From a virus, in UHGV virus genome UHGV-0311442: a stretch of 64,000 bases of DNA; one strand, given 5' to 3'. Below, piece after piece: positions 7,301-35,456 of the stretch (position 1 is the stretch's first letter; every line of letters starts with the position of its first letter). Both the position numbers and the translations under genes were made by a program. The notes under the pieces are model-generated. The model was not told the DNA's origin, did no database searches, and saw only the letters and a list, made by a program, of their open reading frames with translations.

Positions 7301-10300
7301 TTTCTGGGAAGGCAGGAACGGCGGTAAACAAAGCTGTGACTTTACCGAAGAAACTTCTGGGTTTCATTTCGCCTAAAGCGGCTTCGTTGTTCGAGAAAGC
7401 ACGCGAGTGGTTAAATGAGGTTCCAGAGGGTGCAGAGAAAACCCGTTTACAAAGCATGATTTCCCGCGTAACGGGAATGCCAGCTCGTCTGTGGAACAAT
7501 GCAAAACGTGGGTTTGAGAAGCTCAAAGAGTTGGCTTCTGATAATCCGTTGACACGTTGGTGGCAGAACCGTAAGGAAGGGGGTTCTGGTGGTGGGTTTA
7601 GTGTGTTCTCATGGTCGAATGGCCGTAAAACTAACCACATCTTAATCCGTATCTACAAACTCCTTAACCGGAGATTGCCAGGTGAACCTGAAGATGACAC
7701 CTGGACAGAACAGATGGAGCGGAATACGGGGGCCAGTTCAGTTAAAGGATTATTCCAACGTGCTAAGGACATACGCGAAGGGTTCCGTGAACATTTTCAA
7801 GGGTTCCGGGATTGGCGTGGTCGGATGCGTGACAGAATGTCCCGTTACCGTAGTGCGGTAGGTGGTCGTCTTTCTCGTTGGGGTGGTGCAGCACGTGATT
7901 GGTTTGACCGTTTCCGTGGTCGTGCAAGCGATATGGTCGATACCTTCCGTGATCCGCGTTACGACATTGGAACACGTTATCGAATGGAGAGTCGTTTAGC
8001 AGGACGCGATGACGACGTTGCTGAGTTTTATCGTCAACACATCTACGCAAGAGGCAAGGTGTCTAAAACACGTATCATCGATGCGGCAAAAGAAGACTTG
8101 GATACCGTAACGGATAGCGCTGGACGTGTGATTAATAAAGGGAAACAGAAAGCCCGTAGCGTTGGGTCGGTTTTACTGGAACGCCTGAACCGAATGGTTA
8201 ATCTTCAGGAAATGTCGTGGTTTAATACCATGCGTGATTCTGCGGAAAAAGCAGGTGCTTCGGATGGTTTGTTAAGAACCATGTTCAGTAAGTTCGGTCA
8301 ACGTAACAAGCCACCTGCCAGTGATGAAAAACGCGATTACTTCCAGTTCTTCCGACGCCGTCGTCGCTCTAAGGAAGAGGAAAAGGCTAAGAAAGAGGCT
8401 GAGAAGAAAGGCGGTAAACGTGGGGTAATGGATTTCCTTAAAGGACTGCCGTTGGTAGGGCCGATTGTGAGTATTTTAGGCACAGTGGGTTCAATCTTAG
8501 GTAAAGTCGCAAAATGGGGAATCTTTAAGCCGGTTGGGTTTGCAGGTAAAGCGTTGTGGAACGTTGGTAAGTTTGCTGTGACCCGTTTGGCTGTTCCTGC
8601 GGTGAGTGCTGTCGCGACGGCAGCATCTGCAGTGGTAACTGCGGTTGGCTGGCCGATTATCGGTTTGGTCGCTGCAGGCGCTGCGCTGTCTTGGTTTGCG
8701 TATAAAACTGCAACCCGTGTGAATGCTCAGTATCTGGATAACATGCGATTGGCACAGTACGGATTTAGAGATCACGATGAGTGGTCTTCCGACGATGGCG
8801 CAAAAGCACGTTATTTAGAAGACAACTTGAAACCGTACATCTCTTATACAGAGAATGGCCAAGCACAGTTGCGTGGTTTGTCCGGTGACGACGTGAAGAA
8901 ACTGGCCGAAGGGTTTGGTACTAACGTAGAAGACAAAGGCGAAATGCTGGCGTTTACTGCGTTTATGTTACAACGTTTTGTGCCGATCTATTTACGTTGG
9001 ATTACGGCACTGAAATCCATGGATAATGATATCGCGTTAGCAGATGTCGGTAATCCTGCGAAAGTGTCGAAAGCGGACATGCTTACCATCTTTAACAAAA
9101 TGAAGATGACAAAAGATGCGCCTGCTTTTAAATCACTGACAGACCCCCGTAAAGTTAACCAAGGCTGGTTCTCTAAAGCGTGGGATTTCGTGACCTTCAC
9201 ACCGGCAGAATTTTTGTCAGGTGAAGAAGTTGTCGAAGCACAAGATCGTGTTTTCCGGTCTATCAACATGCGCCGTGACGATAAGCGTAAGGAAACAACT
9301 GGAGCCGGTGCTGTGCCTGAAGGACATAAAGTTGCTTCTGTGGCAGAATCTTCGCAGGTACTCGCGAAGAACGATACCGAGCGTAACGAAACTGTTGCTA
9401 AAGCTGAGGGTTGGGAAGACGGTACTGAACAGGTTCAAATTCAAGTTGACTGGAGAGCATTACCTGAGAAGAAAGATTTGGACGCGATGGAATCCGTCCG
9501 TTGGAAATCTTACGGTGTGAAATCTGTTAATGAGACAACACGTACCCTCTTTAGGTTGCTTGAGAAAGAAGTGTTGAAAGACACGGATATCAAAAATTGC
9601 ATTTATAAGGGCGATTGGAAGAAAGCAATTTCTGCGATTGCGCCTGATGCAATTGGTGGCCCAAAAGAGGAGCGTTACAAGAACTGGTTCTATAATCGAT
9701 TCTTACCTGTATTCATGACCTACGTTTATGGTGTAAAACGCTACGTACCTCATGCAGATCCGTTGGATTTGAAACTCACAGGGGGTTTCCTCTATGAGCT
9801 GGCACTGATGATGCGTGGTGCTTACAACATGAAAGGGGGTATCCGTCAGTCTGTGTGGGAAATCGCATTTAACCCGTTAGGAGGCGATGCGAATACCGAT
9901 GCAGGTTCAGTGAGGGAAGAATTAGCAACGCTGAAAGAGTTGTCTAAAGAACCCGATCTGGCTGTAAGGAACATGCTCAAAGAAACACCGAGCACACCTA
10001 AGCGTATGACATGGAAATCGCCAGCGACAAACTCCAGTGTCCATCAGACGAATGAAGATAACAAAGAGCGTTATAAGGGAATTAACAGCTATGGCGAAGC
10101 TTCAAACGACGGATACTTACCGAAAGGTGGTCAGTCCTACGGTACGCCAGGTGACTTATCACAAGTTGTTGGCGATATGGGTATAGGGAACTATGCGAAG
10201 TATTCCACTGGACAATCTGGCATCACCCTCGGTGAGTTACAAGACGGTGATTACAAATCGTTAGTGACTAAATACCCAAGGGAAATGCTTGGCAAACCGA

Positions 10301-11514
10301 TGCAGTCAAATACTGAAGCCATCAAGTCATTGATTATTGACGCGGCAAACATGGTGGGTGTTCCACCATCTGTTGCGATTGCAATGGCACAAGCAGAATC
10401 TGGCTTACAGTATGGCAACTATCCTGGCGCATCCTCTGGTAGACCGAGAAGTAATAAGATGTCTGCCGCTGGCCTGTTCCAATTTACCAATGGCACTTGG
10501 AATGGGGTTATGAAGCAGTACGCCCGAAGATACGGTATTCCACAAACCGACCAGTTCGACCCGTGGGCTAACGCAATCTTAGGTGTTAACTTCATTAGAG
10601 ACAACATCAAGACCGCACAAAAGGATCTGGGTGGAATTGCCCCACCTCCGGCAGTAGCGTACCTATACCACTTCTTAGGCCCAGGTGGTGGTGCTGAGTT
10701 CCTTAAAGCCTGGAAAACCAATCCTAACGGGTCGCCCGACAAAGTGAAGTACATCACACCTGCCGTTCTTAACGGTAATGAAGGTGTTTTCTATATCATG
10801 AACGGGAAGAAACGCGTTAGGATGCGTACGATCGGTGAGGTTGTCGAGGAACTGAACCGCCGTATGGGTGCGGTTGGAACCAACGAGATTGCAGCAAATC
10901 CTGCGTCTGCGAAAAACATGACGAAAGGGTTATCACCAGTTCCATCGTCTCCTGCAATTGCTGCTGGCGCAGCTAACGATCCGTCTATTGCTGGTCCGGC
11001 AGATAACCTGCCAGCCGCGAACGAGGCGAATCGTGACTCCGCTTTAGCAGACAAAGGTGCGATGGGCGCTGAAGATATTAAAGCTGCAACGGGTGGTGGT
11101 CCGGCTGTGCCGAGTCCTGGCGGTGACGTCACGCCAAGTGATGCGTCTGTCGTTGTTGAAACGGTGGGTCAAAATGCGCGTGCTGACGGTCTGGGCGAAG
11201 AGGAAGTTGCCAAAGTAAAAGAAGGTGCTAGACAGCAAATGGAGAAATCCGCACGTCCTGCACCAACGGTAACGTCTGATGCACAGACTACACCAACAGT
11301 GAACAGTGGTGATCCGATCAGCGTACAGCAGCTGGCGGTTGCAAAAGAGTCTGCGGGCTATCTGAGAGAGATTGTAACAATTCTTCGTCAGAGACCACAG
11401 GCTATGCAGCCATCCCCAGCGACCTCGGCAGCTTCTGCTCCGGGTTCAGCATCACGTAACATCGCGGTTGAACAACCTGCCCGCCAACTCGACGTTGGTC
11501 GTAAACGGGCGTAA
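4348..11514 (+). CDS. Giant virion/tail-associated protein with a lytic transglycosylase (SLT) domain; phiKZ gp181-like cell-wall-degrading or tape-measure-like protein
   Basis: Track ORF of 2388 aa. SLT motifs AIAMAQAESGLQYG...AAGLFQFTNGTWNGVMKQY...AVAYLYHFLGPGG lie at nt ~10300-10760, with the putative catalytic Glu codon at 10396-10398. A cluster of hydrophobic helices lies at nt ~8440-8710. Polybasic and Arg-rich tracts and an Ala/Pro/Gly-rich C-terminal tail are present. A terminator follows at 11523-11551. Confidence 0.8.
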   Translation: MAKKGKDDFDEIDLDNMDDWDDFDEPPRQQDQSRNPVMDTFRAARKSALSTIWPENKRDQVILKGMPKPAAEAYEGYQNVKAAGQDILAHTKDEIEKTSRVVKMQARQLGPTLKRYLPESVTRKIDKWARNDQIDYGNYDPKQAMMDRELDSVFSGAPQTADQQREAQEGMVEDRLRDTIKDMKSDALFQTVIGIAKDVNLTTSLSRGVLLNVQRKQLELQYRTLFALQDIAKLKQDEFARNTPALEAIVKNTALPDYAKEEFSEIRWANVKRKAAEWMNPLHYADNFIGQIRENAKKKISNIFSDGRGILEQVLGMAQEDDFDMSDSSSLSPDRRNTNSRNKAAGFAGGWLAKRLLQPQIERLQNWTRGELEKNPEVMKRLQLAKYGFGNLSSISNSAIAGETSGPLADLFRLMHDLGLVNPLRRETLALDDRSAESLSAAAKFDRKAYLSITEVIPTLLSEINKSIRRGYGEHHDQVYDLTTRGMVDRKVIGNRVRKAVANDDQRKRLQTYINDTVDFIDKDKTLDRKTRQALADYIESRASEGKAFDVGSLLKDPMHMYRYMNANAVEAIQGVLEARSAELVGGHHELSNAISNKIAAIQSTIRARQDTVDAASVIYGENALRDSGIFKYDAKKDIFEVDKDINDPYTLFNDLSMGKTRSGRSLTREQEIQRKLQNGSALGDYLRRMGAGAEPSFEDKELSNVRGGGKGGRGRGLSARQLAAVLYGEKSTNFVELLSSRPDTNAGLEQQFDRLIDAVRKQPESSIVQDILKHVKNMDEEGILLASLGGSRDDGDEPESSGESGRKRRRKRKRIVLGETGLLRRWAGVLWDTGSGVGRFGKNLFLRGKDRLQALGGFIRGKFSGGSSEGPGVFSRLKGLVTGTLSTGWNSAVAFGKGVLGVRDIYDERGNVVLQGSRLEAGEYYQADPKTEKLIQLKTLDDIKLGRDIVDEAGNLILAAADLAAAGKLRFYKGGKVQALFQYISGKAGTAVNKAVTLPKKLLGFISPKAASLFEKAREWLNEVPEGAEKTRLQSMISRVTGMPARLWNNAKRGFEKLKELASDNPLTRWWQNRKEGGSGGGFSVFSWSNGRKTNHILIRIYKLLNRRLPGEPEDDTWTEQMERNTGASSVKGLFQRAKDIREGFREHFQGFRDWRGRMRDRMSRYRSAVGGRLSRWGGAARDWFDRFRGRASDMVDTFRDPRYDIGTRYRMESRLAGRDDDVAEFYRQHIYARGKVSKTRIIDAAKEDLDTVTDSAGRVINKGKQKARSVGSVLLERLNRMVNLQEMSWFNTMRDSAEKAGASDGLLRTMFSKFGQRNKPPASDEKRDYFQFFRRRRRSKEEEKAKKEAEKKGGKRGVMDFLKGLPLVGPIVSILGTVGSILGKVAKWGIFKPVGFAGKALWNVGKFAVTRLAVPAVSAVATAASAVVTAVGWPIIGLVAAGAALSWFAYKTATRVNAQYLDNMRLAQYGFRDHDEWSSDDGAKARYLEDNLKPYISYTENGQAQLRGLSGDDVKKLAEGFGTNVEDKGEMLAFTAFMLQRFVPIYLRWITALKSMDNDIALADVGNPAKVSKADMLTIFNKMKMTKDAPAFKSLTDPRKVNQGWFSKAWDFVTFTPAEFLSGEEVVEAQDRVFRSINMRRDDKRKETTGAGAVPEGHKVASVAESSQVLAKNDTERNETVAKAEGWEDGTEQVQIQVDWRALPEKKDLDAMESVRWKSYGVKSVNETTRTLFRLLEKEVLKDTDIKNCIYKGDWKKAISAIAPDAIGGPKEERYKNWFYNRFLPVFMTYVYGVKRYVPHADPLDLKLTGGFLYELALMMRGAYNMKGGIRQSVWEIAFNPLGGDANTDAGSVREELATLKELSKEPDLAVRNMLKETPSTPKRMTWKSPATNSSVHQTNEDNKERYKGINSYGEASNDGYLPKGGQSYGTPGDLSQVVGDMGIGNYAKYSTGQSGITLGELQDGDYKSLVTKYPREMLGKPMQSNTEAIKSLIIDAANMVGVPPSVAIAMAQAESGLQYGNYPGASSGRPRSNKMSAAGLFQFTNGTWNGVMKQYARRYGIPQTDQFDPWANAILGVNFIRDNIKTAQKDLGGIAPPPAVAYLYHFLGPGGGAEFLKAWKTNPNGSPDKVKYITPAVLNGNEGVFYIMNGKKRVRMRTIGEVVEELNRRMGAVGTNEIAANPASAKNMTKGLSPVPSSPAIAAGAANDPSIAGPADNLPAANEANRDSALADKGAMGAEDIKAATGGGPAVPSPGGDVTPSDASVVVETVGQNARADGLGEEEVAKVKEGARQQMEKSARPAPTVTSDAQTTPTVNSGDPISVQQLAVAKESAGYLREIVTILRQRPQAMQPSPATSAASAPGSASRNIAVEQPARQLDVGRKRA

Positions 11515-25579: not shown

Positions 25580-27076
25580 TTATTTCTTTTTCGTCAGGAA
25601 CTTCGGTTCTAGCCCATCGACAGCCATACCCAGAATAGTACGTGCAGTCAATGTACGTTTACCACCTTTGGTTTCCTGGTCTTTAAACATCCAGTATTCT
25701 ACCGTGTTGTCCAGAATTTCATTCCAGTCCCACTTCTCGTCAATCATTTTGTAAATCTCACCCATGCTGAGATGATACTTCATTTCAAGACGATGGTAGT
25801 TGTTTTGCATATAAGCAATTGCCGCCGTGATCTCTAAAGCGCGACGTAAGCGTGCGTTATCAGAAATCATATCACGGATCGTCGTGCGTTGGAATTTCAC
25901 ACCAGGTAGAATGTCCAGTTCTTTGATGGAACCGCCACTACCGCTTGATGTGAAACCAAAGTCTGACTTCTTCAGCGTGTCACTTAAATAGTGCCACAGG
26001 CTCAGGTGATATAACAGACCCATTTCCTGAGAGAAGATCATCTGAAATTTCACACCGGTGTGACCACCCTTCGCACGATACTGGGTAAAGGTGATAATCT
26101 TCAAGTCGTTTACCGACGCATTCATCGCTTTAGAACGTGACGTCGGATAAAGTTCTTCGTTAACACCCGTCTGCGCGTTATAGCTCTGGTCTTTTTTCAG
26201 CTCCCCTGATTTCGTCGCGACGATAAAAGAGTTTGTTAAAAAGCTAAGCTGACGGCGAGGAATACCTGCGAATTTTAAATCGTCGTTGGCATCGTCAAGA
26301 ATTTTCGCATTTGCTTTTTGTGCCTGACGACCACCTGCCATCGCTTTCCCAGAGTCATCGGCCATCTGTGCCACGAAGCCCATGTAAAAACCACCGCGTG
26401 CAAACGCAGACGGCCAGCGGCTCATCATATTCGATTTTTGCAACGCGTCGTGGGCGTTCAGGATGTTCTGATCAGAATCCCCAATATCCGTTTTTGCGTG
26501 CTTGTCTTCCAGCGAACTGGAATGCCACTCTGACAGGGAGTCGATAGAATAAAGCCAGGGGTCCAGGATTTCTTTTAACTTACGACGAACCGGATCGGGG
26601 AACGGTGTTACGCGGGTTTTACCAGACATATACTGTTTGAAGCGTTTTTCAACTTCATCACGAATATAATCACTGTAATACTGTTCCCCAGGCATTACGT
26701 CAGAACCGACCAGGTTATAACGACCTTCGTGGATAAGCTCCAGTACGGATGTTCCGTCGTCGATACCGTTGGCGTTCATGGCAGAGATGTACCCAGTTTC
26801 TAAACGATCGAGGGCAGCGGACACTTCTGTATCGTACTTAGAACCCCACTCTGCTTTATAACGTTGCAGGATTTGGAAGATACAGAAATCTAACAAGGTG
26901 GATTTAAAGGTGTTACCGCGACCTGCGAAACCCATGATGTGGGCAAAACCACCGTTAAGGTAGTACAAACCATCTTCACCTTTTTCGTAGTTACCTAAGG
27001 CATGATCCATGATGGTGTAAACGTTAAAACGTGGACGAATTACTTCACCGATAACTTGCTTAGTTGGGCCTGCCAT
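25580..27076 (-). CDS. UvsX/RecA-like recombination ATPase
   Basis: Track ORF of 498 aa. Walker A variant GFAGRGNTFKSTLL (cf. T4 UvsX LAGPSKSFKSNFGL), then YDTEVS (cf. YDSEFG) and the Walker B-like LYSIDSLSEW (cf. VVFIDSLGNL). Confidence 0.6.
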   Translation of the reverse strand: MAGPTKQVIGEVIRPRFNVYTIMDHALGNYEKGEDGLYYLNGGFAHIMGFAGRGNTFKSTLLDFCIFQILQRYKAEWGSKYDTEVSAALDRLETGYISAMNANGIDDGTSVLELIHEGRYNLVGSDVMPGEQYYSDYIRDEVEKRFKQYMSGKTRVTPFPDPVRRKLKEILDPWLYSIDSLSEWHSSSLEDKHAKTDIGDSDQNILNAHDALQKSNMMSRWPSAFARGGFYMGFVAQMADDSGKAMAGGRQAQKANAKILDDANDDLKFAGIPRRQLSFLTNSFIVATKSGELKKDQSYNAQTGVNEELYPTSRSKAMNASVNDLKIITFTQYRAKGGHTGVKFQMIFSQEMGLLYHLSLWHYLSDTLKKSDFGFTSSGSGGSIKELDILPGVKFQRTTIRDMISDNARLRRALEITAAIAYMQNNYHRLEMKYHLSMGEIYKMIDEKWDWNEILDNTVEYWMFKDQETKGGKRTLTARTILGMAVDGLEPKFLTKKK

Positions 27077-27091
27077 TTAGCGCTCCGATAA

Positions 27092-27391
27092 TTAACGATT
27101 CTTGGTCGGAAGAAGGAGACGGCGGTTGTGCCAGAATTCAAAGTAGGTTTCTACCCACTCAGTAACTTCTTCCGCATTTTCAGGATAAGGGTTTTCAATA
27201 GACTCGAAACGGCGTTTGTTACGCTCGTCAATTTCCAGTTCCATAACACGTTTACCGCTCGGGCACGACGTTACGCTCAAGACTTTTCCAACTTGAATAG
27301 GCTTACCGTTCTGACCTTTTTTAACTGGGGACAGATAAATTTCCGGTTCTAAACGCGGTGTGGTGTTTCGAGTCAGTAATTTGATTTTCAT
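27092..27391 (-). CDS. Hypothetical protein
   Basis: Track ORF of 99 aa with an ATG start. It is the first gene of the minus-strand unit after the divergent region 27392-27489. Confidence 0.55.
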   Translation of the reverse strand: MKIKLLTRNTTPRLEPEIYLSPVKKGQNGKPIQVGKVLSVTSCPSGKRVMELEIDERNKRRFESIENPYPENAEEVTEWVETYFEFWHNRRLLLPTKNR

Positions 27392-27454
27392 CGAGCTTTA
27401 CCTTTATGGAAGAGTCTCGGTCATAAGGTTTGGGTGAACTGTAAAAAGACTTTA

Positions 27455-27479
27455 CTATGTAACCCTGACTTATAATCCG
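27455..27479 (-). promoter_or_regulatory. Weak variant of the class B promoter-like motif (minus orientation: CGGATTATAAGTCAGGGTTACATAG)
   Basis: Resembles AGATATTATCCAGGTGTAAC at 32521-32545 but the core differs. It lies upstream of the minus-strand gene starting at 27391. Confidence 0.25.
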
Positions 27480-27489
27480 AGGTTTTAGA

Positions 27490-28245
27490 ATGAATGTAAA
27501 TCCACTTGCAGCGTTATCTAGCTTCGCCGCTAAAGCGTCTGCAATCTTACCGAAAGGGTTTAGCGGCCCTCAACAAGAGATTGCATTAACCACTTATGAC
27601 GAGATGTCGGACGTTTCCAAGTGGATGCAACAAGAAAAATTCCTACACTTTGCGGGAATGTTGGTTATCGTTCCACCAGGGTTTAATACCTACGTGATGG
27701 ATCATTTGAACCGCTTAGAATCTGTATGGAGTTCACTACAAAACATCTATACGGGTATTCTGCTACCGGTCGATAAACAACTTTCGGCCCTTACACATGA
27801 TGTGGGGGTACTGTCATTACCGATTGGTTTCCGTTACAAAAACGTTAATTTGCCGTTACGTAATGTTAACCCGAAAGACCTGGTTAACTTATTAGCGAAA
27901 TCGTACACTAATAACGTTATTGACCAGCGACCAATTGAGAAGACGTACCACAGCGCGTCTGAGATTGACGTTGCGTTCAATCGTGCTAAAGCCCTGAACG
28001 TTGAAATCACAAAACGTCTACGGACGAACATCGACAAGTCAATCGAGTCCATTCGCACTACGTCAGAAATCTTGTCCGAACAAAACATTCATCCGAATGT
28101 AGCAAAAGAACTGACGATGATGTTAGATTTTGCATCCGATTGGGTGGAGCTGTTTGGTTTGTTCATGAAACAGGTTAACGAGTTAATCGAATGTCTGAAC
28201 GTTACTGCCGAACGCTTAAAAGCGCTTAAGGCAAACAAAAAATAA
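27490..28245 (+). CDS. Hypothetical protein
   Basis: Track ORF of 251 aa with an ATG after GAGG. It ends at a bidirectional terminator. Confidence 0.6.
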   Translation: MNVNPLAALSSFAAKASAILPKGFSGPQQEIALTTYDEMSDVSKWMQQEKFLHFAGMLVIVPPGFNTYVMDHLNRLESVWSSLQNIYTGILLPVDKQLSALTHDVGVLSLPIGFRYKNVNLPLRNVNPKDLVNLLAKSYTNNVIDQRPIEKTYHSASEIDVAFNRAKALNVEITKRLRTNIDKSIESIRTTSEILSEQNIHPNVAKELTMMLDFASDWVELFGLFMKQVNELIECLNVTAERLKALKANKK

Positions 28246-28255
28246 AAAAGTAAAG

Positions 28256-28290
28256 TTACCCCTAGACCACACGGTCTAGGGGTAAACTAT
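28256..28290. terminator. Bidirectional hairpin terminator between convergent genes
   Basis: 13-bp stem ttacccctagacc/ggtctaggggtaa with loop acac. An A-run lies upstream and a T-rich run downstream. Confidence 0.75.
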
Positions 28291-29190
28291 TTATTTCCCA
28301 CGATAAAATCCAGAAATGTAACTCGGCGCTATCCATCGCCATTCGCGCCAGCGCATTTCTGACATTTTACCACACCATACACGCTTCCAATGCGCACGAC
28401 GGATATGTGCGGCGCAATAAATCGCCAAACAAACCTCGTGTCCTTCCTTGCGTTGCTGCTCTATATCTTCCCATTGTACCGGACTTACGTCTAAAACGAC
28501 TGCTTCACTACGTGGGCGAATTTCTGTATCAGGAACATAACGAATGGACCTTCCGCGAAATTCTTTTTTCTCGCGCTCAGTTCGTTTAATTCGTGATGAA
28601 AGATATAACCCGATGTAGACGGCGTCGAGTAGTCGCTGATTCTCCTTAACCGAAGTAAGGAGCGGCTTTAACTCCACGAAATCATCATTACTTTTATCGA
28701 TCGTGTAAATCTCAAACTCCATGTATACCGACTCGTCATGTTCTTCGCATGACATCACAAAGAGAACTTCTTCACCTTCGTAAAGACGTCTTCCGATAAA
28801 TAACGTGATCGGACATTCGTCGAGATTTACGGTAACCGAGAAAGTAAATGAAGGGATGGTTTCTATCCAGAAGTACGGGATATTTTTTAGTCTCTCAGTT
28901 TTTGCTAAGAGTGCCATCAGTTCTTCATCCGAGATGATTTCAACAGCAGCGTATTGCCATCCTAGTCCCAGGGACTGCTTAATCAGTCTGGGAATCTGTT
29001 CGGTAACGCCATACTCACGATAGGTCGGATCTTTAACTGGCATAAACGTTACAGGTATTTGACGTTTATGCTCGTTAATGAACCGAATAAAGCGGCACTG
29101 ATCCAATCCGTGAATTGTTTGGTGTGCCTTTTCTATCTGTTCGCTCATGCGTCTTAGCGCTTTCCCGTAAAGTCTATTATTCGTTGTCAT
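28291..29190 (-). CDS. Hypothetical protein; paralog of 29216..30142 with a conserved basic/Trp-rich C-terminus
   Basis: The track ORF extends to 29286. I prefer the ATG at 29190 (MTTNNRLYGK...) after TTTAGGAGC, which removes the overlap with the upstream gene. The C-terminus is AAHIRRAHWKRVWCGK...WRWIAPSYISGFY. Confidence 0.6.
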   Translation of the reverse strand: MTTNNRLYGKALRRMSEQIEKAHQTIHGLDQCRFIRFINEHKRQIPVTFMPVKDPTYREYGVTEQIPRLIKQSLGLGWQYAAVEIISDEELMALLAKTERLKNIPYFWIETIPSFTFSVTVNLDECPITLFIGRRLYEGEEVLFVMSCEEHDESVYMEFEIYTIDKSNDDFVELKPLLTSVKENQRLLDAVYIGLYLSSRIKRTEREKKEFRGRSIRYVPDTEIRPRSEAVVLDVSPVQWEDIEQQRKEGHEVCLAIYCAAHIRRAHWKRVWCGKMSEMRWREWRWIAPSYISGFYRGK

Positions 29191-29215
29191 TTTAATGCTC
29201 CTAAACACTTTTAGC

Positions 29216-30142
29216 TTAATTGTGGGGTACGTAGCCACGGACAAATGTCGGTGGAATCCAGTAAAGTTTTCTCTTCCTTTCACCATTTCTAGGACCGACC
29301 CAATATCTGCGCCAGTGCGCGCGACGAATATGTGCGGCCTTGGCGTGTTTGATACCTTCCATGGTTTTCAAGTCAGTGTTAAACCCTTTTAGATAATTCA
29401 CTTGTCCTGGCGTGATATCTATCTTAACATCGCGTTCACGAGGTTTAACGTCGTAACTAATACTACCGTTCTTTTTGATTTCCTTGAACTTAATATCATT
29501 AAAAGACTCCCTGTAATTAGGCGGGATTAGCGTACAGAGAAATATCAACGATATGGCGGTTTTGGCCAGTGATAGCCATAACGTCTTCTCTTGTTCGGTC
29601 TGTACGCCAGTTGTATAATCGATTTCAACAAGCCCGTTTCCAACACTACATATCTCTAACGAGCAGGTGGCGATCGTGGTAACGCCTTCTGTTAACCCGT
29701 AATCAGTATTTGTAGCAATTATAATAAACCTTCTATTCCCATTTTTTCGATAACCGAGAAAGAAAGTCTCATCTTCTTTACCTACATCGATTGCTACAGT
29801 CCAAGTAGGTATAAAGTCTAACCACTCTTCAGGGAATTTACTGGGCATCTCAGTCTCGAAAACAAGTTCTCTAAGTGCTCGATTGGATATTAAGGAAGCG
29901 CCCCCGTATAGCCATCCAATTGCCAATGTTTGTGCGTGAAGGGAACGGGGATCTTTGAGACCTAACTCAGCGTCGTATGGTATAAAGGCATTAGTTAAAT
30001 GCTTACGATTCTTTTTTATCCATTTCGAGACGGGATTTTCTTTTGTTTGATTTTCTTCCATGACATTTTCTAGATGCTGACTCCCCATTTGTCTAAGGCA
30101 GTCTTTAATACCTTTTACTTTTTTACTTTTGTACAAATACAT
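29216..30142 (-). CDS. Hypothetical protein; paralog of 28291..29190
   Basis: Track ORF of 308 aa. The C-terminus AAHIRRAHWRRYWVGPRNGERKRKLYWIPPTFVRGY and internal blocks (LAIGWLYGGASLIS, FIPTWTVAIDVG) match the downstream paralog. Confidence 0.6.
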   Translation of the reverse strand: MYLYKSKKVKGIKDCLRQMGSQHLENVMEENQTKENPVSKWIKKNRKHLTNAFIPYDAELGLKDPRSLHAQTLAIGWLYGGASLISNRALRELVFETEMPSKFPEEWLDFIPTWTVAIDVGKEDETFFLGYRKNGNRRFIIIATNTDYGLTEGVTTIATCSLEICSVGNGLVEIDYTTGVQTEQEKTLWLSLAKTAISLIFLCTLIPPNYRESFNDIKFKEIKKNGSISYDVKPRERDVKIDITPGQVNYLKGFNTDLKTMEGIKHAKAAHIRRAHWRRYWVGPRNGERKRKLYWIPPTFVRGYVPHN

Positions 30143-30164
30143 GGTATATTCTCCTAAAATGGTT

Positions 30165-30196
30165 AAAAATAAAGTTACCCTAGCCGAAGCTAGGGT
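30165..30196 (-). terminator. Rho-independent terminator (minus strand)
   Basis: Stem accctagc/gctagggt with loop cgaa. The minus strand continues aactttattttt. Confidence 0.7.
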
Positions 30197-30201
30197 GTCT
30201 A

Positions 30202-30690
30202 TTAGTCGATTTTGACGTAATCAGGATAATTAGCTTTTAGCCACTCCCACAGGTGCAGCGCGAGCATACCCTGGTCGTAACTAATGATTTCCACAATACC
30301 GTGTGAGTGTGCTTCATTACTCCAAATTTGACTATAGAAACGACGCCACTCACCTTCTGCATAAGGTAGCACAGTTCCTGGGATAAAACCGTTGTGGTAT
30401 TCGTTAATTAGCGATTGTAAAGTTTCAATGCGGATTCCGTATAATCGGCTATCGATGAACGATTTTGTAATCCCACCAAAGAAACCAACAAAGAAATTAT
30501 CCAGATTCATCATAAGTCTGGATCTGTAATTACCTACAATGTAGTCGGCGGCTGCCGCAGCCATCCACGGAGTATCGACGACTCTTGGCGTCAGTTTATC
30601 GTGGATTGTTGTACGTACACGGACGGTGTGGTTAAGAAATTCATGAATCATGTCGGAGTTTTTCAAAGCGATTATCTGATTTAAGTTCAT
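30202..30690 (-). CDS. Hypothetical protein
   Basis: Track ORF of 162 aa with an ATG start, 1 nt after the upstream stop. Confidence 0.6.
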   Translation of the reverse strand: MNLNQIIALKNSDMIHEFLNHTVRVRTTIHDKLTPRVVDTPWMAAAAADYIVGNYRSRLMMNLDNFFVGFFGGITKSFIDSRLYGIRIETLQSLINEYHNGFIPGTVLPYAEGEWRRFYSQIWSNEAHSHGIVEIISYDQGMLALHLWEWLKANYPDYVKID

Positions 30691-30691
30691 T

Positions 30692-31216
30692 TTATTGTCC
30701 TAATATTGGGGTGAGTCTGTCTGCGGTGTTTAACAACGCTTTTGTAATTTCGTAGTCGGTTTCTTTCAGGATGGCGATACAAACGGTGATGTAAACTTCG
30801 ATTGCTAACATGATTTCTTGTTCGGACAGCAACGGTTCGGTACCGCCAATCCCGTAACGCTGCGCCGCATACTCAATTTCAAGTTTCAAACGTTTCCATA
30901 ATGCCTTGTCGTCGGTTAAACGTGCACAGGCACGATCAAAACGTCTTTTATAAACGCCGATCTTGTGGTCAATTTCACGACGCAGTTGGTCGGCTGCTAC
31001 GCCATCATCAAGAGTGATGGTGACATTGTCAACTAAACAGTAATGCACTGTGTGTCGTAAGTTGTGTAATGTGGCGACAGTAACGACCCGCTCCTGATGG
31101 TCGCTAAAGCCGTGAGCACCACAGAGCTTGCGTGCAACCGCGCCAGAGATTTTCTCCTCTAGCGCTATCGGTGTGGCAATGGTTGTTTTCTTACGAAGCT
31201 GAATTAAAATATCCAC
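30692..31216 (-). CDS. Hypothetical protein
   Basis: Track ORF of 174 aa with a GTG start 7 nt after AAAGGAG. Confidence 0.6.
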   Translation of the reverse strand: MDILIQLRKKTTIATPIALEEKISGAVARKLCGAHGFSDHQERVVTVATLHNLRHTVHYCLVDNVTITLDDGVAADQLRREIDHKIGVYKRRFDRACARLTDDKALWKRLKLEIEYAAQRYGIGGTEPLLSEQEIMLAIEVYITVCIAILKETDYEITKALLNTADRLTPILGQ

Positions 31217-31218
31217 GA

Positions 31219-31761
31219 TTATACTCCTTTAGGTTGACCGTATTTTGATGACAGGTAGATGAGCTCAGCATGGCAGACTTTCTCAACTAACCCGAGTGTC
31301 TCAAGGAAAATATCCCGGATACGGGACATTGTTTCGTTGGTAAGAATATCGCTCCAACACGTTGTGTCTATTATATCCGTCGTTGAAGATTGTCGCTGCA
31401 ATATGGCGACATATACCTCGTCGAGGGTATCTGGAGCATTATTCTGTAAGTAATGCGCGGCATGTAGAAAGGCTTTCTCAAGAATCAGGTGAATATCCGT
31501 ATCAGGATCAGTTACCCGCACTAAATGTGGGTATGTCATGGCCGAATGGATTTTTCGTTCTAACTGTTCAATGAGATTATTCACCATCGCTTCTGAATCC
31601 AGGATAGTAATTTCGGCCCCACTGTGTTCTTCAGAAATCTTGTTCTCATGTACTGCTATCGCGTCGTGCAGTTCAAACGCAACGCGGCTACGCATCTCAC
31701 TTAACAGTTTGTTTAATTTACCCCGTGACTCGCTGAGTGAGAAATCGATAAGTATTTTCAT
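31219..31761 (-). CDS. Hypothetical protein
   Basis: The track ORF starts at a GTG at 31791 and would overlap the upstream gene. The ATG at 31761 (MKILIDF...) directly follows the upstream stop. The start is uncertain. Confidence 0.5.
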   Translation of the reverse strand: MKILIDFSLSESRGKLNKLLSEMRSRVAFELHDAIAVHENKISEEHSGAEITILDSEAMVNNLIEQLERKIHSAMTYPHLVRVTDPDTDIHLILEKAFLHAAHYLQNNAPDTLDEVYVAILQRQSSTTDIIDTTCWSDILTNETMSRIRDIFLETLGLVEKVCHAELIYLSSKYGQPKGV

Positions 31762-31762
31762 G

Positions 31763-32500
31763 TTAATAGCCCTGATAAATGATGTCGTCACGGTCTTTAC
31801 GTAACTGGCAGTATGTTACGTCAGCACCGTTAGGGATTTGTACGCCAGCGTCTTCAAGATAAATAACACCAGTCTGATTACAGAAATAAAAAGACCACAA
31901 GTACGGATTGCCTTGACAACTGTTTTCACGATGATCGAAGGGCCAATAACCGCGATACAATTCGTCGTAATCGCCGCGCTCGATACCAAAAGCAATCATT
32001 TCTTTTTCCCACAATCTGCTTTCGGCGTCGTAAATCGAAAACCAGAAACCGACGAGGTTCTTTGTCCGTTTAACGTTCATTAAGTCGTTATAAATGGGGA
32101 AGAGTGCTTTATTGAAACTTTCTAACATCTCTGGAGAGAGTAGAAAGTTCACGTAGTATTCTAGCCATTGATAAACGGCTTCCCAGACATCTTCAGAAGA
32201 GAAATGCTCGAATACGGCGTCATCACAATCGTAGTTATCGAAGACCCCTGAGAGATCTATTATGACGTCGCGAAGGTCAAAGTTTCGGTTGGTATTGACA
32301 GCCTCAATAACTTCGGAGATAAGACGAGTAAAGACGTTTGTGCAGGCAGTCTGTGCGGTATAAAAGAATTCTCCTTGTGCGGTTGACCACTTCGGGTCCT
32401 TCAAATGTTCATTGAAGTATTGTGGCCAAATTTTATAAAAGATTCCCTCGAACAACGAGGGATTGATACGTTGTAATTGAGGGACATAAACTTTTAGCAT
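31763..32500 (-). CDS. Hypothetical protein
   Basis: Track ORF of 245 aa. The ATG lies 28 nt downstream of AGATATTATC, with a TGGAG SD. Confidence 0.6.
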   Translation of the reverse strand: MLKVYVPQLQRINPSLFEGIFYKIWPQYFNEHLKDPKWSTAQGEFFYTAQTACTNVFTRLISEVIEAVNTNRNFDLRDVIIDLSGVFDNYDCDDAVFEHFSSEDVWEAVYQWLEYYVNFLLSPEMLESFNKALFPIYNDLMNVKRTKNLVGFWFSIYDAESRLWEKEMIAFGIERGDYDELYRGYWPFDHRENSCQGNPYLWSFYFCNQTGVIYLEDAGVQIPNGADVTYCQLRKDRDDIIYQGY

Positions 32501-32520
32501 TTTAATAACTCCAATGGTGT

Positions 32521-32545
32521 TACACCTGGATAATATCTATCTAAG
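32521..32545 (-). promoter_or_regulatory. Promoter-like motif, class B (minus orientation: CTTAGATAGATATTATCCAGGTGTA)
   Basis: The AGATATTATC core sits exactly 28 nt upstream of the ATG at 32500. The TAG stop of the upstream gene forms the 5' end of the motif. Confidence 0.45.
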
Positions 32546-33205
32546 AATATTTTTAGCGAAAAAAGGATCGACTGTAAACTCCTTCACCTGTGAGTCATAA
32601 CCCGAATGTATTTGATCGCTACTGAGCAAATACTGGTCTAAATCGTGCGGAAGAATCCAAGAATCGCCTTGCTTAAAAATACCATAATCTGCTGTTCCTG
32701 CGGAAAAAATGATTTCCTCTGGAAACGAATAGATGTGGCGTAAGGCAAGATCGGATGGCTTTAACACGATTAATCGAACGGGATGTTGACTGACTGCCTC
32801 TTTAATAAACTGTTCACGATTAAACCAAATTATTTTTTCGGGGTAAGTTTCGAATTCAGCCCATGTCCGCGTGATAACTAATTTGGAAATCTTTCTCAAT
32901 TCTTCAGAATGCTCTGCGTAGCCAATACACTCCTTGCGTACTTCATGATTTTCTACCGATGCTGTGAATTTTTGGAATAGGTGTTGTTGGAAAAAGCCGT
33001 TCTCCGGGATATCACAACCCGCGTTGTATAGTGCAATGATCTCCCACAACAACGAAAGAGAAAACACAAATGCTAACTTTTCCACCACTTCCCAATCTTC
33101 GGAGTAAGGGGCTTTAAAGCCCCAATACTGCCGTGCGTTATACATAAAGTGAGTTTGTAAAAACCGGGGGGCTTTTGACAAGACCTCACTATAAACGATC
33201 AGCAT
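32537..33205 (-). CDS. Hypothetical protein
   Basis: Track ORF of 222 aa. The ATG overlaps the 3' end of the RNase H gene by 7 nt. Confidence 0.6.
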   Translation of the reverse strand: MLIVYSEVLSKAPRFLQTHFMYNARQYWGFKAPYSEDWEVVEKLAFVFSLSLLWEIIALYNAGCDIPENGFFQQHLFQKFTASVENHEVRKECIGYAEHSEELRKISKLVITRTWAEFETYPEKIIWFNREQFIKEAVSQHPVRLIVLKPSDLALRHIYSFPEEIIFSAGTADYGIFKQGDSWILPHDLDQYLLSSDQIHSGYDSQVKEFTVDPFFAKNILR

Positions 33206-34719
33206 TCAAGCTCCTTATCCGTCAGTATTCGTTTGTTTGAATAATAGCCGCACCACAACCCATGATATTTTTCCCCGATATAAACCAACGCATATTCGAT
33301 ATACTGCCGTTCTGGACGCCGTACCGCCACGTAGAAACGCCCTTCTGGTTCTTTCATACGGTTGATTTCCGTACGCGTCGGTATGTCGATACCACGAGTA
33401 AGGATAGTTTTAACCTTGTTTTTGCTACCAGGGATATGGATAGTTACGTCAAAACCTTTATCTACATTACGATAAAAGTCTTTCTTCGGCTTACCCTTCT
33501 CATCGTAAAGCAGGTCAGTAATGTCGTTCATTACGACTGAGTTTTTCCCCTCCATGGCATCGCGTAACCAACCTGCAAGCTCATCACGAATCGTAATGCA
33601 GCGATAAGACAATAACGCGGGACGAAGAATTCGTGTAATCGAAAGATCTTCAAACATCCATAGGTTTTTGTCTTCGCTAAAATGCATCCGATCGACAGGA
33701 ATACCGTTAGCTGCGGCTTCTGCGAACTTCTTACGTTTTACGAATAAGTTAAAAACAACGGCGATGGGATCAAACTGACGTAAACGGGGCACCCCTTCCC
33801 ATGCTTTCGCAGAGTGGGTATTTACCAACTCGTATACGTTGTTCCATGGTTCTTTGGTAAACATTACGCAGAATTGTGCGTCTGGAATGTACTTACCAAC
33901 GAAGACGATATCGTCCTTCTGTTTTGCATGGTTCCCACCGAACATGTAATAAAGTTTATTACCGTTAACTGTAACCGTGGGATGCGGTTCGTTCACCATC
34001 GGGTAACAGAACTTCGTAACACAGATATCGGGAAAAGCAGACAAATTGACACCTTCACCAACAACTTCTGGTTGCTGTTCTTCCTCAGGCATCTCGTCTT
34101 TTGACCAATACGGTGTATAGTCTAGCCCCTCACCTCGAGCCGAGATACTTGAACCTTTCCGTGCTAACTCGTCGGCACGCTCGTTTCCATAACGCCCTGA
34201 GTGACCTTTAATTTTAAGGACACGAACGCCTTTCCCTTCTTTCTTTAACCGCTGTTTAACCTCCCACATCCGTTGGATTAATTCCAAATTCGCAATGGGT
34301 GTGCCGTCCGCACGACGCCAGCCGCGTGCTGCCCAACCATCAATCCAATCGTTATACGTGTTGACAACGTAAGATGCGTCGATATAGATAACATAGTTTT
34401 TGGCAACGAAAGGGGCGTGTTCGAAGACGGTCAGGAAAGCCACGAGTTCTGCAACGTCGGAGTGTGACATTTTTGGTACAGGCACAACACCGTCAATAAA
34501 CTCCACGGTTTCTGGTAAAGGTGGAAGTTTTTCATCCTTGTTTATCTGGCGGTATCCTGACGTCGTAATCCCCTCGGGAATAGAGGGATGGCGGTAAACC
34601 CGACCATCCTCAATCGTTTCACGATTAAATAAGTATCCATGAATCCCCGCTCCTGTACCGAGCGGGGAGGTCAAATGGCTACCATCCGTGTAAATTACTG
34701 CAACATCAACGTTCTTCAT
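33199..34719 (-). CDS. RNase HI domain protein fused to a ~300-aa C-terminal domain of unknown function
   Basis: Track ORF of 506 aa. The N-terminal ~200 aa carry RNase HI motifs: VIYTDGS, AELVAFL, IYIDASYVVNTYNDWIDGWAARGW, KIKGHSGRYGNERADELARKG. The remaining ~300 aa match nothing I recognise. Confidence 0.75.
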   Translation of the reverse strand: MKNVDVAVIYTDGSHLTSPLGTGAGIHGYLFNRETIEDGRVYRHPSIPEGITTSGYRQINKDEKLPPLPETVEFIDGVVPVPKMSHSDVAELVAFLTVFEHAPFVAKNYVIYIDASYVVNTYNDWIDGWAARGWRRADGTPIANLELIQRMWEVKQRLKKEGKGVRVLKIKGHSGRYGNERADELARKGSSISARGEGLDYTPYWSKDEMPEEEQQPEVVGEGVNLSAFPDICVTKFCYPMVNEPHPTVTVNGNKLYYMFGGNHAKQKDDIVFVGKYIPDAQFCVMFTKEPWNNVYELVNTHSAKAWEGVPRLRQFDPIAVVFNLFVKRKKFAEAAANGIPVDRMHFSEDKNLWMFEDLSITRILRPALLSYRCITIRDELAGWLRDAMEGKNSVVMNDITDLLYDEKGKPKKDFYRNVDKGFDVTIHIPGSKNKVKTILTRGIDIPTRTEINRMKEPEGRFYVAVRRPERQYIEYALVYIGEKYHGLWCGYYSNKRILTDKELEC

Positions 34720-34721
34720 TC

Positions 34722-35456
34722 TTAATCCCTGGTTAATTGATCACGAATCTGCGGCGCAACATACTCGCCAGTTTTCAGTTCTTCGTGACAGGCTTTGGCG
34801 CGTTCAAACCCGTATTGGCGGGTGACCAAAGCGAGGTGATAAATACGTGCCGTAGTGTAGGCTTCTTTTGCTGCATCCCACATTGCGTGGTGCTCAAAAG
34901 CGGGCTTACCGCGCGTCCAATAAACTTGCTCTACCGTTAAGTCGGGTTCGAAACCAAACGCAAAAGCTAAACGCTCTGCGGTACGATCGCTATCTAACGC
35001 GCTAAATTTACGGAACTTCCCTGGCGGGATATCGCATTGTGCGAATGCGTTCATGAAAACCGGCGCATCGAAGTCGGGACCGCGCATGGTAATAACAAAC
35101 TCATGCTTTGCGGTGATCTCTCCGAGCCATTTTTGCATCGCCCACAGCGCGTCTGGCAATGCTGTTGTTCCACCCCAGGCTTCTTCATACGCTTCACGAG
35201 ATGGTGCGTATTCGGGTTCACCTTTACCTTCCCACCAACCAACGGTTTGTGGGTCTTCGTGGAAAATGGCTTTTGCTTTAGGATCGTTAGGATCAATACG
35301 GATGTATGAAGAACCGACCATTTTCAAGGTAGGGACGTCAAAAGCCACTAAACCTGCACTCAACAGATAAGCATCAGGACGTAACGATTTGGTTTCTGCA
35401 TCAGCACCAATAACCAGTGTCGGTGTGTACGGGGTGACAATTTTTGGGTAGGTCAT
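34722..35456 (-). CDS. DEDDh-type 3'-5' exonuclease (Rv2179c-like/DnaQ-like fold)
   Basis: Track ORF of 244 aa. Motifs: VIGADAETKSL (DxE), MRGPDFDAPVFMNAF, HHAMWDAAKEAY (H-x4-D). Confidence 0.6.
   Translation of the reverse strand: MTYPKIVTPYTPTLVIGADAETKSLRPDAYLLSAGLVAFDVPTLKMVGSSYIRIDPNDPKAKAIFHEDPQTVGWWEGKGEPEYAPSREAYEEAWGGTTALPDALWAMQKWLGEITAKHEFVITMRGPDFDAPVFMNAFAQCDIPPGKFRKFSALDSDRTAERLAFAFGFEPDLTVEQVYWTRGKPAFEHHAMWDAAKEAYTTARIYHLALVTRQYGFERAKACHEELKTGEYVAPQIRDQLTRD

What the first reader, a model, noticed from the sequence alone, without database searches (positions are those of the whole stretch)
28291..30142. Tandem paralog pair with a strongly conserved basic/tryptophan C-terminal motif AAHIRRAHW(K/R)R.W.G...W(I).P
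The two proteins (299 aa from my revised start, and 308 aa) share internal blocks: LG(L/I)GW(Q/L)Y...(I)IS and (I/F)(E/D)(T/F)IP(S/T)(F/W)T(F/V). They also share an almost identical C-terminal segment. This segment is conserved even at nucleotide level (GCCGCACATATCCGTCGTGCGCATTGG versus GCCGCACATATTCGTCGCGCGCACTGG), while the rest has diverged.

That implies strong selection or gene conversion on a His/Arg/Trp-rich tail that looks like a nucleic-acid-binding or catalytic element. I cannot place it in a family. I have a vague memory of similar HxxRxHWR tails in uncharacterised phage and plasmid proteins, but that is not evidence.
Basis: seen in the sequence. Interest (0 to 1): 0.5.

Follow-up and report, generated by a model that had tools for sequence, protein, structure and literature searches.

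The report
Tandem AcrVA2/FinQ-like genes in jumbo phage
The two neighbouring genes are diverged copies of the known AcrVA2/FinQ family, proteins that mobile elements use to silence one specific rival or host gene, and the conserved His/Arg/Trp tail is the part shown by mutation to be essential in AcrVA2; this is an unannotated but not a new kind of protein.

Summary
Two adjacent minus-strand genes, B (29216-30142, 308 aa) and A (28291-29190, 299 aa), are true paralogs (26% identity, E 7e-21). They share the tail AAHIRRAHW(K/R)R.W.G...W(I).P.

- A family profile seeded on B matches the AcrVA2 crystal structure sequence (7CI1) over its full length, E 6e-39.
- The invariant His-x-Arg-x-x-His aligns with AcrVA2 H286/R288/H291. 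Alanine mutants of these residues abolish Cas12a mRNA down-regulation (Marino et al., bioRxiv).

The nucleotide similarity in the tail reflects purifying selection, not gene conversion. Codon identity there is no higher than background, and tail dN/dS between orthologs is about 0.04.

The window is a Seoulvirus/Erskinevirus-like chimallivirus. Relatives in GenBank carry one copy at this locus. The window's own clade carries the pair, and the locus evolves far faster than its flanks.

Most likely function: two target-specific silencers that act on mRNA during translation, with different and unknown targets. Cas12a is an unlikely target.

Verdict: new members of a known kind, of moderate interest.

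The parts
29216..30142 (-). Paralog B, 308 aa, the upstream gene. It is AcrVA2-like and is the copy closer to the single-copy gene of other chimalliviruses.
28291..29190 (-). Paralog A, 299 aa from the revised ATG, the downstream gene. It is AcrVA2-like and the more divergent copy.
29240..29338 (-). C-terminal four-strand beta domain of B (residues 269-301). It holds AAHIRRAHWRRYWVG...YWIPPTFV with invariant H271, R273, H276, W281, G283 and W295.
   Evidence: Alignment A2. Aligned to AcrVA2 PHIRRGHWHGYWQG...RWQPAVFV. Strands 271-273, 276-282, 290-296 and 299-301 in the model.
28315..28413 (-). C-terminal beta domain of A (residues 260-292). It holds AAHIRRAHWKRVWCG...RWIAPSYI with invariant H262, R264, H267, W272, G274 and W286.
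   Evidence: Alignment A3. Strands 262-264, 267-273, 281-287 and 290-292 in the model.
29906..29926 (-). LAIGWLY block of B (residues 73-79). W77 is the equivalent of AcrVA2 W79. Ten residues downstream, at the D89-equivalent, B has N87 and A has Asp.
   Evidence: Profile alignment to 7ci1 and alignment A1. W79A and D89A phenotypes are from bioRxiv 10.1101/2022.11.29.518452.
29528..29797 (-). Fast-evolving middle beta-sheet domain of B (about residues 116-205). It is the presumed target-recognition part.
   Evidence: Between B orthologs this stretch has 40-42% aa identity and dN/dS 0.34-0.44. The last 50 residues have 88% identity and dN/dS 0.04. Beta strands 115-175 in the model.
29198..29202 (-). 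Shine-Dalgarno AGGAG for A, inside the 25-nt B-A spacer. This suggests B and A are co-transcribed.
   Evidence: Read from the sequence.
28256..28285 (.). Bidirectional terminator-like hairpin with a 13-bp stem. It lies between A and the convergent gene 27490-28245.
30177..30196 (-). Terminator-like hairpin (8-bp stem plus a T-run) 35 nt upstream of the B start codon. With the hairpin at 28256-28285 it brackets B and A as a two-gene unit.

Best explanation
B and A are two diverged members of the AcrVA2/FinQ family (Pfam PF26125, AcrVA2-like). They are encoded in tandem in an accessory, fast-evolving locus of a Seoulvirus/Erskinevirus-like chimallivirus (a nucleus-forming jumbo phage).

Each protein has three parts: an N-terminal helical domain, a variable middle beta-sheet domain, and a small, strongly conserved C-terminal four-strand domain carrying H-x-R-x-x-H-W...W-G...W-x-P.

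By analogy with AcrVA2, the variable N-terminal and middle part would bind one particular protein, probably as a nascent chain on the ribosome. The conserved C-terminal His/Arg motif would then trigger loss of that protein's mRNA. This would switch off one host defence gene or one rival-element gene per paralog.

The two copies keep the effector tail but have diverged in the recognition part, so they most likely act on two different targets.

Shown here: paralogy, family membership, fold, conservation of the mutationally defined residues, purifying selection on both copies, rapid turnover of the locus, and the copy-number pattern.

Inferred: translation-coupled mRNA silencing, target recognition by the middle domain, and two distinct targets. 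The targets are not identified.
For: Family membership:
- Direct phmmer of B hits AcrVA2 7ci1 on the tail, E 0.0016.
- A 44-sequence family profile, whose members all came from the profile search with the window clade, hits 7ci1 over residues 6-318, E 5.8e-39.
- Orthologs of both A and B are labelled PF26125:AcrVA2-like.
- Foldseek: 7ci2_A E 3e-10, probability 1.0, nothing else below E 0.07.
- FinQ of R621a against the window-clade profile: hhalign probability 97.1%, E 5e-11, 220 columns.

Functional residues:
- H271/R273/H276 in B and H262/R264/H267 in A align with AcrVA2 H286/R288/H291.
- W77 aligns with W79.
- The phenotypes of these AcrVA2 mutants, and the translation-dependent, peptide-specific mRNA loss, are from bioRxiv 10.1101/2022.11.29.518452.

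Selection:
- B orthologs have whole-gene dN/dS 0.19-0.25, tail 0.04, middle domain 0.34-0.44.

Arms-race signature:
- Against close relatives the flanking genes are 88-92% identical, but A is 63% and B is 68% or 92%.
- Against SaP7 and Asesino, UvsX is 81-82% identical and the AcrVA2-like gene 23-30%.

Copy number:
- One match per genome in each of the 25 GenBank jumbo-phage records with a hit. SaP7 and Asesino carry it at the same syntenic position.
- The pair is present in the window clade: L002, L003, L006-L009, L011-L014 and L016.
- An independent duplication in L078 shows the same pattern, with conserved C-terminal halves and diverged N-terminal and middle parts.
Against: - There are no functional data for any jumbo-phage member.
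- Identity to AcrVA2 is only 10-17%, so the activity may have changed.
- The AcrVA2 mechanism rests on one preprint, and its RNA-decay step is unexplained (PMC13131331).
- The fold resembles no known RNase or RNA-binding domain.
- B has Asn at the position of AcrVA2 D89, where D89A causes a moderate defect. This holds for the window copy and for P0001.
- Assigning target recognition to the middle domain is an inference from its variability. The 7CI2 peptide contacts (E98/D129/D195) were themselves dispensable in vivo.
- dN/dS stays below 1 everywhere, so positive selection is not demonstrated.
Confidence: 0.6

Rival explanations
1. They are true anti-CRISPRs against Cas12a (type V-A), like AcrVA2 itself.
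For: Membership in the same family and conservation of the essential HxRxxH residues. Huge-phage proteins that cluster with AcrVA2 have been proposed as Acrs (PMC7162821).
Against: - The N-terminal and middle parts are only about 10-17% identical to AcrVA2.
- Marino et al. report that family members usually occur where Cas12a is absent, and that FinQ acts on F-plasmid transfer genes instead.
- All identified relatives infect Enterobacterales: Salmonella, Escherichia, Erwinia, Dickeya and Enterobacter. From general knowledge, not tested here, type V-A systems are rare in these hosts.
- A chimallivirus shields its DNA from DNA-targeting CRISPR. This is established for the family but was not tested for this phage.
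Confidence: 0.05
2. They are stand-alone nucleic-acid-binding proteins or nucleases. The basic His/Arg/Trp tail would bind or cut DNA or RNA directly, with no protein-specific targeting.
For: The tail is basic and aromatic with two invariant His and one invariant Arg, a composition typical of metal-independent RNase sites. AcrVA2 lowers mRNA levels. The genes lie among nucleic-acid enzymes: UvsX, RNase H and an exonuclease.
Against: - In AcrVA2 only the cas12a transcript was significantly down-regulated transcriptome-wide, and this required translation and a defined peptide.
- The motif is not HEPN-like. It reads H-x-R-x-x-H on beta strands, not R-x4-6-H in helices.
- A variable recognition part joined to a conserved tail fits a targeted effector better.
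Confidence: 0.12
3. They regulate the phage's own programme, or shut off host genes in general. For example, they might remove a class of early phage or host mRNAs at a set time, rather than countering a defence system or a rival element.
For: The gene sits at the same syntenic position next to replication and recombination genes in the three chimallivirus genera checked: Seoulvirus, Erskinevirus and the window clade. This could indicate a house-keeping role. Family biochemistry would allow any translated target.
Against: - The locus evolves far faster than its flanks: 23-30% identity against 73-82% with SaP7 and Asesino, and 63-68% against about 90% within the clade.
- Copy number varies.
- Both features are typical of conflict genes rather than core regulators.
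- Both characterised relatives, AcrVA2 and FinQ, act against other genetic elements or defence.
Confidence: 0.15

Closest known systems
AcrVA2 (Moraxella bovoculi prophage anti-CRISPR; PDB 7CI1/7CI2; Pfam PF26125 AcrVA2-like)
   Same: - Similar length: 299 and 308 aa against about 322 aa.
- Same C-terminal H-I-R-R-(A/G)-H-W...W-G...W-x-P motif, including the three residues essential for mRNA down-regulation.
- The conserved Trp equivalent to W79.
- Carried by a mobile element.
   Different: - Only 10-17% identity.
- The N-terminal and middle domains are not alignable by pairwise sequence search.
- The carrier is a lytic chimallivirus of Enterobacterales rather than a Moraxella prophage.
- The gene is present as a diverged tandem pair.
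- No adjacent acrVA1-like or aca-like gene was seen among the neighbouring genes I scanned (25580-35456).
- Cas12a is an unlikely target.
FinQ (fertility inhibitor of IncI plasmids such as R621a and R820a, acting on F-plasmid transfer genes)
   Same: Homologous over about 220 columns (hhalign probability 97%, E 5e-11). FinQ has the same tail, PHIRRGHWHTYWTG...LIWLPPVPV. It is a weapon of one mobile element against another and lowers target mRNA levels.
   Different: FinQ is plasmid-borne and longer (a 363-aa ORF) with a C-terminal extension. The N-terminal region is unrelated at sequence level. Its target, the F tra operon, is irrelevant to a lytic phage.
phrog_6160 and the single-copy homologs in Erwinia phage Asesino (gp235), Salmonella phage SaP7 and JN03, Escherichia phage EC001, Dickeya phage AD1
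   Same: Asesino gp235 and the SaP7 homolog occupy the same syntenic slot, between a block of small unknown genes and the opposite-strand 251-aa gene, a 99-aa gene and UvsX. Both paralogs match phrog_6160 across the middle and C-terminal regions, from about residue 70 to the end.
   Different: Those genomes carry one copy and the window clade two. Identity is only 21-31% although the flanking core genes are 73-82% identical. All but one are annotated only as hypothetical proteins; JN03 has no annotated feature under the match.

Membership tests
AcrVA2-like (PF26125) / AcrVA2-FinQ family | Significant sequence or profile match to AcrVA2 along the whole protein | tested here: met
   Family profile A2 against 7ci1: E 5.8e-39, query 9-299 against chain 6-318. 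B alone matches the tail only, E 0.0016. Orthologs of A (98% and 63% identical) and of B (92% and 68%) carry PF26125:AcrVA2-like. The local Pfam copy gave no hit for the window proteins or their orthologs, apparently because it lacks this model.
AcrVA2-like (PF26125) / AcrVA2-FinQ family | Three-domain fold of 7CI1: helical N-terminal domain, beta/alpha middle domain, four-strand C-terminal domain | tested here: met
AcrVA2-like (PF26125) / AcrVA2-FinQ family | Conserved C-terminal H-x-R-x-x-H (AcrVA2 H286, R288, H291), required for activity | tested here: met
   B has H271/R273/H276 and A has H262/R264/H267. These positions are invariant in 44-45 diverse members and align to PHIRRGHW of 7ci1.
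AcrVA2-like (PF26125) / AcrVA2-FinQ family | N-terminal-domain residues W79 and D89, which give moderate defects when mutated | tested here: inconclusive
   The Trp is present in both paralogs (W77 in B). Asp is present in A and in two B orthologs, but is Asn (N87) in the window's B and in P0001.
AcrVA2-like (PF26125) / AcrVA2-FinQ family | Translation-dependent, polypeptide-specific down-regulation of a target mRNA | not testable with these tools
   This needs co-expression, RNA-seq and pull-down experiments. It is known only for AcrVA2 (bioRxiv 10.1101/2022.11.29.518452).
Anti-CRISPR type V-A (functional class) | Inhibits Cas12a interference, with a Cas12a-bearing host | not testable with these tools
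Relatives infect Enterobacterales. The family is mostly found without Cas12a.
HEPN-type RNases (considered because of the His/Arg motif) | R-x(4-6)-H motif in an all-alpha domain | tested here: not met

The most novel reading that the evidence does not exclude
In nucleus-forming jumbo phages, DNA-targeting defences are already blocked by the phage nucleus. There the AcrVA2-like locus may be a rapidly re-targetable silencing module. Its hypervariable middle domain would read the nascent N-terminus of a host defence protein that acts in the cytoplasm, for example an RNA-targeting or translation-targeting system. The invariant HxRxxHW tail would then destroy that protein's mRNA on the ribosome. 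The tandem pair would give this clade two specificities at once. If so, allele swapping at this locus would track the host's defence repertoire, and the family would offer a natural set of peptide-addressed gene silencers.
Probability: 0.15. Interest if true: 0.7.

Novelty: new member of a known kind. Interest (0 to 1): 0.35.

Why it matters
The AcrVA2/FinQ family is so far the only reported bacterial case of a protein that removes an mRNA after recognising the peptide it encodes. How the RNA is destroyed is still unknown.

Placing these two 'hypothetical' jumbo-phage genes in that family does three things:
- It gives them a testable function.
- It shows that the His/Arg/Trp tail is the universally conserved effector element across hundreds of clusters.
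- It provides a natural experiment. Two paralogs in one genome, and several alleles in near-identical backbones, share the tail but differ in the presumed recognition domain. Such pairs are convenient for mapping what sets target specificity and for finding non-Cas12a targets in well-studied Enterobacterales hosts.

For annotation, phrog_6160 and the matching hypothetical proteins of Seoulvirus, Erskinevirus and related phages can be labelled AcrVA2-like.

Tried and rejected
- Local Pfam scan of both paralogs and four orthologs, even at E<=10: no relevant hit. Only a chance AAA_19 match at E 0.29 appeared. The local library seems to lack PF26125, which the precomputed tables report.
- NCBIfam: no hit.
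- PADLOC, for both paralogs and five neighbours: no hit.
- Megablast of 27400-31300 against GenBank phages: no match. The phage has no close sequenced relative in that collection.
- tblastn of B against plasmids: only one record, a 222-kb Enterobacter ludwigii 'plasmid' that is really a related jumbo phage. FinQ plasmids were too distant for pairwise search, so I fetched R621a by accession.
- The word-indexed homolog search found only close relatives: 3, 2 and 8 hits. The exhaustive profile search was needed to see the family.
- Exact-sequence look-up of B in public assemblies: not on record.
- Gene conversion between A and B: rejected.
- HEPN-type or other known RNase folds: rejected.
- A shared sequence in the two flanking hairpins (AAAGTTACCC(C)TAG) as a repeated genome-wide element: not supported. 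There were 4 matches with up to 2 mismatches against 1.6 expected, and 8 of 100 shuffles did as well.
- Sigma-70-like promoter scan around the pair: fewer sites than in shuffles, so uninformative. This is expected for a phage with its own RNA polymerases.
Full report
**1. What is in the sequence**

Two minus-strand ORFs fill 28291-30142.
- The upstream gene, B (29216-30142, 308 aa), starts at an ATG preceded by AGGAGAA.
- The downstream gene, A, is listed mechanically from ATG 29286 (331 aa).
  - AGGAG (29198-29202) lies 7 nt upstream of it.
  - The longer reading would overlap B by 71 nt.
  - Orthologs of 299 and 294 aa begin at this Met.
- B's stop (29216-29218) and A's start are 25 nt apart, which fits co-transcription.
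- Terminator-like hairpins bracket the pair. One is a 13-bp bidirectional hairpin at 28256-28285, between A and the convergent gene 27490-28245. The other is an 8-bp hairpin plus T-run at 30196-30177, 35 nt upstream of B.

Yes.
- BLASTP of A against B gives 26% identity over 285 columns, E 7e-21.
- The shared internal blocks and the tail AAHIRRAHW(K/R)R.W.G...W(I).P are as described. The one inexactness is that B reads LAIGW, not LGIGW.
- The two quoted 27-nt strings sit at 28387-28413 and 29312-29338. They differ at three synonymous sites.

**3. Selection or gene conversion?**

The evidence favours selection on the protein.
- Across the A/B codon alignment, 34 of 74 identical residues use the identical codon. 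In the nine-residue motif the figure is 6 of 9, one of which is Trp. From those counts I estimate P of about 0.14, so there is no excess.
- Between B orthologs of different genomes the last about 50 codons have pS of about 0.5 but pN 0.03 (dN/dS 0.04). Synonymous sites there are free to change while the protein is held fixed.
- A-type tails (WKRVWCG...RWIAP) and B-type tails (WRRYWVGPRNGERKRK..WIPP) each stay true to type across genomes. There is no concerted evolution.

**4. What family is it?**

PHROGs places both proteins in phrog_6160, function unknown. The local Pfam and NCBIfam scans were empty.

The evidence for AcrVA2 built up in steps.
- *Tail match.* A sequence search of the PDB with B hit the tail of AcrVA2 (7CI1), E 0.0016. 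HAKAAHIRRAHWRRYWVG...YWIPPTFV aligns with HTKRPHIRRGHWHGYWQG...RWQPAVFV.
- *Family size.* An exhaustive profile search, seeded only with the window proteins and their close orthologs, found 600 clusters at E<=1e-3. Most are 300-380 aa with the motif at the very end.
- *Full-length profile match.* A 44-member alignment of these has H271, R273, H276, W281, G283 and W295 invariant and P104, P112 and P298 nearly so. As a profile it matches AcrVA2 over its full length, E 5.8e-39.
- *Pfam label.* Precomputed annotations label orthologs of both A and B as PF26125, named 'AcrVA2-like'.
- *Fold.* AlphaFold models are confident: B pLDDT 85 and pTM 0.81, A pLDDT 82 and pTM 0.77. In the PDB they resemble only AcrVA2.
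  - Foldseek: E 3e-10, probability 1.0.
- *FinQ.* The fertility inhibitor of IncI plasmid R621a carries PHIRRGHWHTYWTG...LIWLPPVPV. It matches the window-clade profile with hhalign probability 97%, E 5e-11.

**5. What is known about the family**

The following is from Marino et al. (bioRxiv 10.1101/2022.11.29.518452).
- AcrVA2 lowers Cas12a mRNA and protein more than 10-fold, independently of promoter and codon sequence.
- The effect requires translation and the N-terminal LSKT-containing peptide of Cas12a.
- H286A, R288A and H291A abolish the effect but still bind Cas12a. W79A and D89A are partial.
- Homologs, including FinQ, occur on plasmids and 'megaphages', mostly in hosts without Cas12a.

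Other reports add context.
- Al-Shayeb et al. noted huge-phage proteins clustering with AcrVA2 (PMC7162821).
- A 2026 review still lists the link between peptide recognition and RNA decay as unresolved (PMC13131331).

B H271/R273/H276 and A H262/R264/H267 match AcrVA2 H286/R288/H291. The chain index in 7ci1 is offset by +1. The 'GW' block contains the W79 equivalent (W77 in B). At the D89 position A has Asp and the window's B has Asn.

**6. Genomic setting and evolution**

*The phage.* The window is from a phiKZ-like jumbo phage.
- It encodes a split RNA polymerase beta subunit (2699-4318) that is 86% identical to SPN3US-like Salmonella phages.
- It also encodes UvsX, RNase H, an exonuclease, an SbcC-like protein, thymidylate synthase and giant virion proteins.
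- Seoulvirus and Erskinevirus are Chimalliviridae.

*Synteny.* The AcrVA2-like slot is syntenic in Asesino, SaP7 and the window clade. The order is small unknown genes, then the AcrVA2-like gene(s), then an opposite-strand 251-aa gene, a 99-aa gene and UvsX.

*Copy number.*
- GenBank jumbo phages with a detectable homolog: one match per genome in 25 records.
- The window clade has two copies. This covers a 222-kb E. ludwigii 'plasmid', a 224-kb ENA contig, Logan contigs of 2.5 to 202 kb, and five IMG/VR contigs, four of them 107-225 kb.
- Among the 80 best IMG/VR loci, 74 have one copy. Of the six with two, five belong to the window clade. The sixth (L078, a 31-kb contig) is an independent duplication whose C-terminal halves are nearly identical while the N-terminal and middle parts have diverged.

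*Which copy is older.* A rough NJ tree puts B next to the single-copy chimallivirus genes and A outside them. B is also the closer by BLASTP: 29% identity and E 1e-34 to 1e-37, against 23-25% and E 1e-19 to 1e-21 for A. A is therefore the more diverged copy, or the duplication is old.

*Rate of change.* The locus turns over quickly.
- Against close relatives the flanks are 88-92% identical, but A is 63% and B is 92% or 68%.
- Against SaP7 and Asesino, UvsX is 81-82% and the 251-aa gene 73-76%, but the AcrVA2-like genes are 23-30%.
- Within B the middle domain (about residues 116-205) changes fastest, at 40% identity and dN/dS 0.34-0.44. Both genes remain under purifying selection overall.

**7. 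Most likely mechanism**

Membership is close to certain; I put it at about 0.95. The mechanism is an inference by homology.
- The variable N-terminal and middle module would bind a specific protein, probably co-translationally.
- The conserved four-strand C-terminal domain with HxRxxHW would trigger loss of that protein's mRNA.
- The two paralogs keep the tail and differ in the recognition module, which points to two targets.
- Cas12a is an unlikely target in Enterobacterales hosts, and the family is mostly found without it.
- Host defence proteins or genes of competing elements are the plausible targets, given the two characterised relatives and the arms-race-like evolution. None is identified.
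- Whether the tail is itself a ribosome-dependent RNase or recruits a host factor cannot be decided. No known nuclease fold is detectable, and the motif is not HEPN-like.

**8. Verdict**
It is wrong on gene conversion and is superseded on family placement.
- These are new, highly diverged and so far unannotated members of a known, structurally solved family.
- The added points are the conserved tandem pair in one chimallivirus clade, the hypervariability of the locus, and the split between a variable recognition module and a conserved effector tail. They are useful but not surprising to a specialist.

Noticed in passing
L002 (NZ_CP134650.1, 28517-39434): A 222,441-bp circular, non-mobilizable 'plasmid' of Enterobacter ludwigii 51A:C is syntenic with the window over 11 kb. 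The shared genes are an exoribonuclease, RNase H, the AcrVA2-like pair, the 251-aa gene and a UvsX-like protein. It is almost certainly a chimallivirus-like jumbo phage genome carried by the isolate and deposited as a plasmid.
   Followed up: partly
window 30202-30690 and 31219-31791 (minus strand): Two small neighbouring genes of unknown function (162 aa and 190 aa) are also hypervariable. They are 45-58% and about 62% identical to close relatives whose flanking genes are 82-93% identical. The 162-aa and 174-aa genes have no PHROG match. The AcrVA2-like pair therefore sits in a mosaic accessory island.
   Followed up: partly
L003 vs L002: Between these two relatives the A genes differ by dS of about 0.10 but the adjacent B genes by dS of about 0.34. 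This suggests recombination breakpoints between the two paralogs, that is, allele shuffling of B independently of A.
   Followed up: no
L078 1235-2311 and 3338-4348: An unrelated 31-kb viral contig carries its own pair of AcrVA2-like genes (358 and 336 aa), separated by two small ORFs. The C-terminal halves are nearly identical and the N-terminal and middle parts have diverged. This is an independent duplication with the same divergence pattern.
   Followed up: partly
L010 45396-46487 (plasmid R621a): RefSeq annotates finQ as 780 bp (259 aa), but the open reading frame extends to 363 aa from an upstream ATG. The AcrVA2-family alignment begins at about residue 90 of the long form, so the RefSeq start probably truncates the N-terminal domain.
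   Followed up: partly
window 28256-28285 and 30177-30196: The G+C-rich hairpins flanking the gene pair share the sequence AAAGTTACCC(C)TAG. A window-wide search found no significant family of such elements: 4 matches with up to 2 mismatches against 1.6 expected.
   Followed up: yes
window 4348-11514 and 57332-61654: Two very large ORFs. The 2388-aa protein matches a tail-fibre PHROG and has a transglycosylase-like region at residues 1986-2234. The 1440-aa protein is a virion structural protein. These, with the split RNA polymerase beta subunit at 2699-4318, are typical phiKZ-like jumbo-phage features.
   Followed up: partly
The RNA polymerase subunit finds 289 phage records, including 23 Salmonella phages. 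The AcrVA2-like protein B finds only 25 records, 2 of them Salmonella, at E<=1e-3. Many Seoulvirus-like genomes therefore either lack the gene or carry an allele too diverged for tblastn.
   Followed up: no
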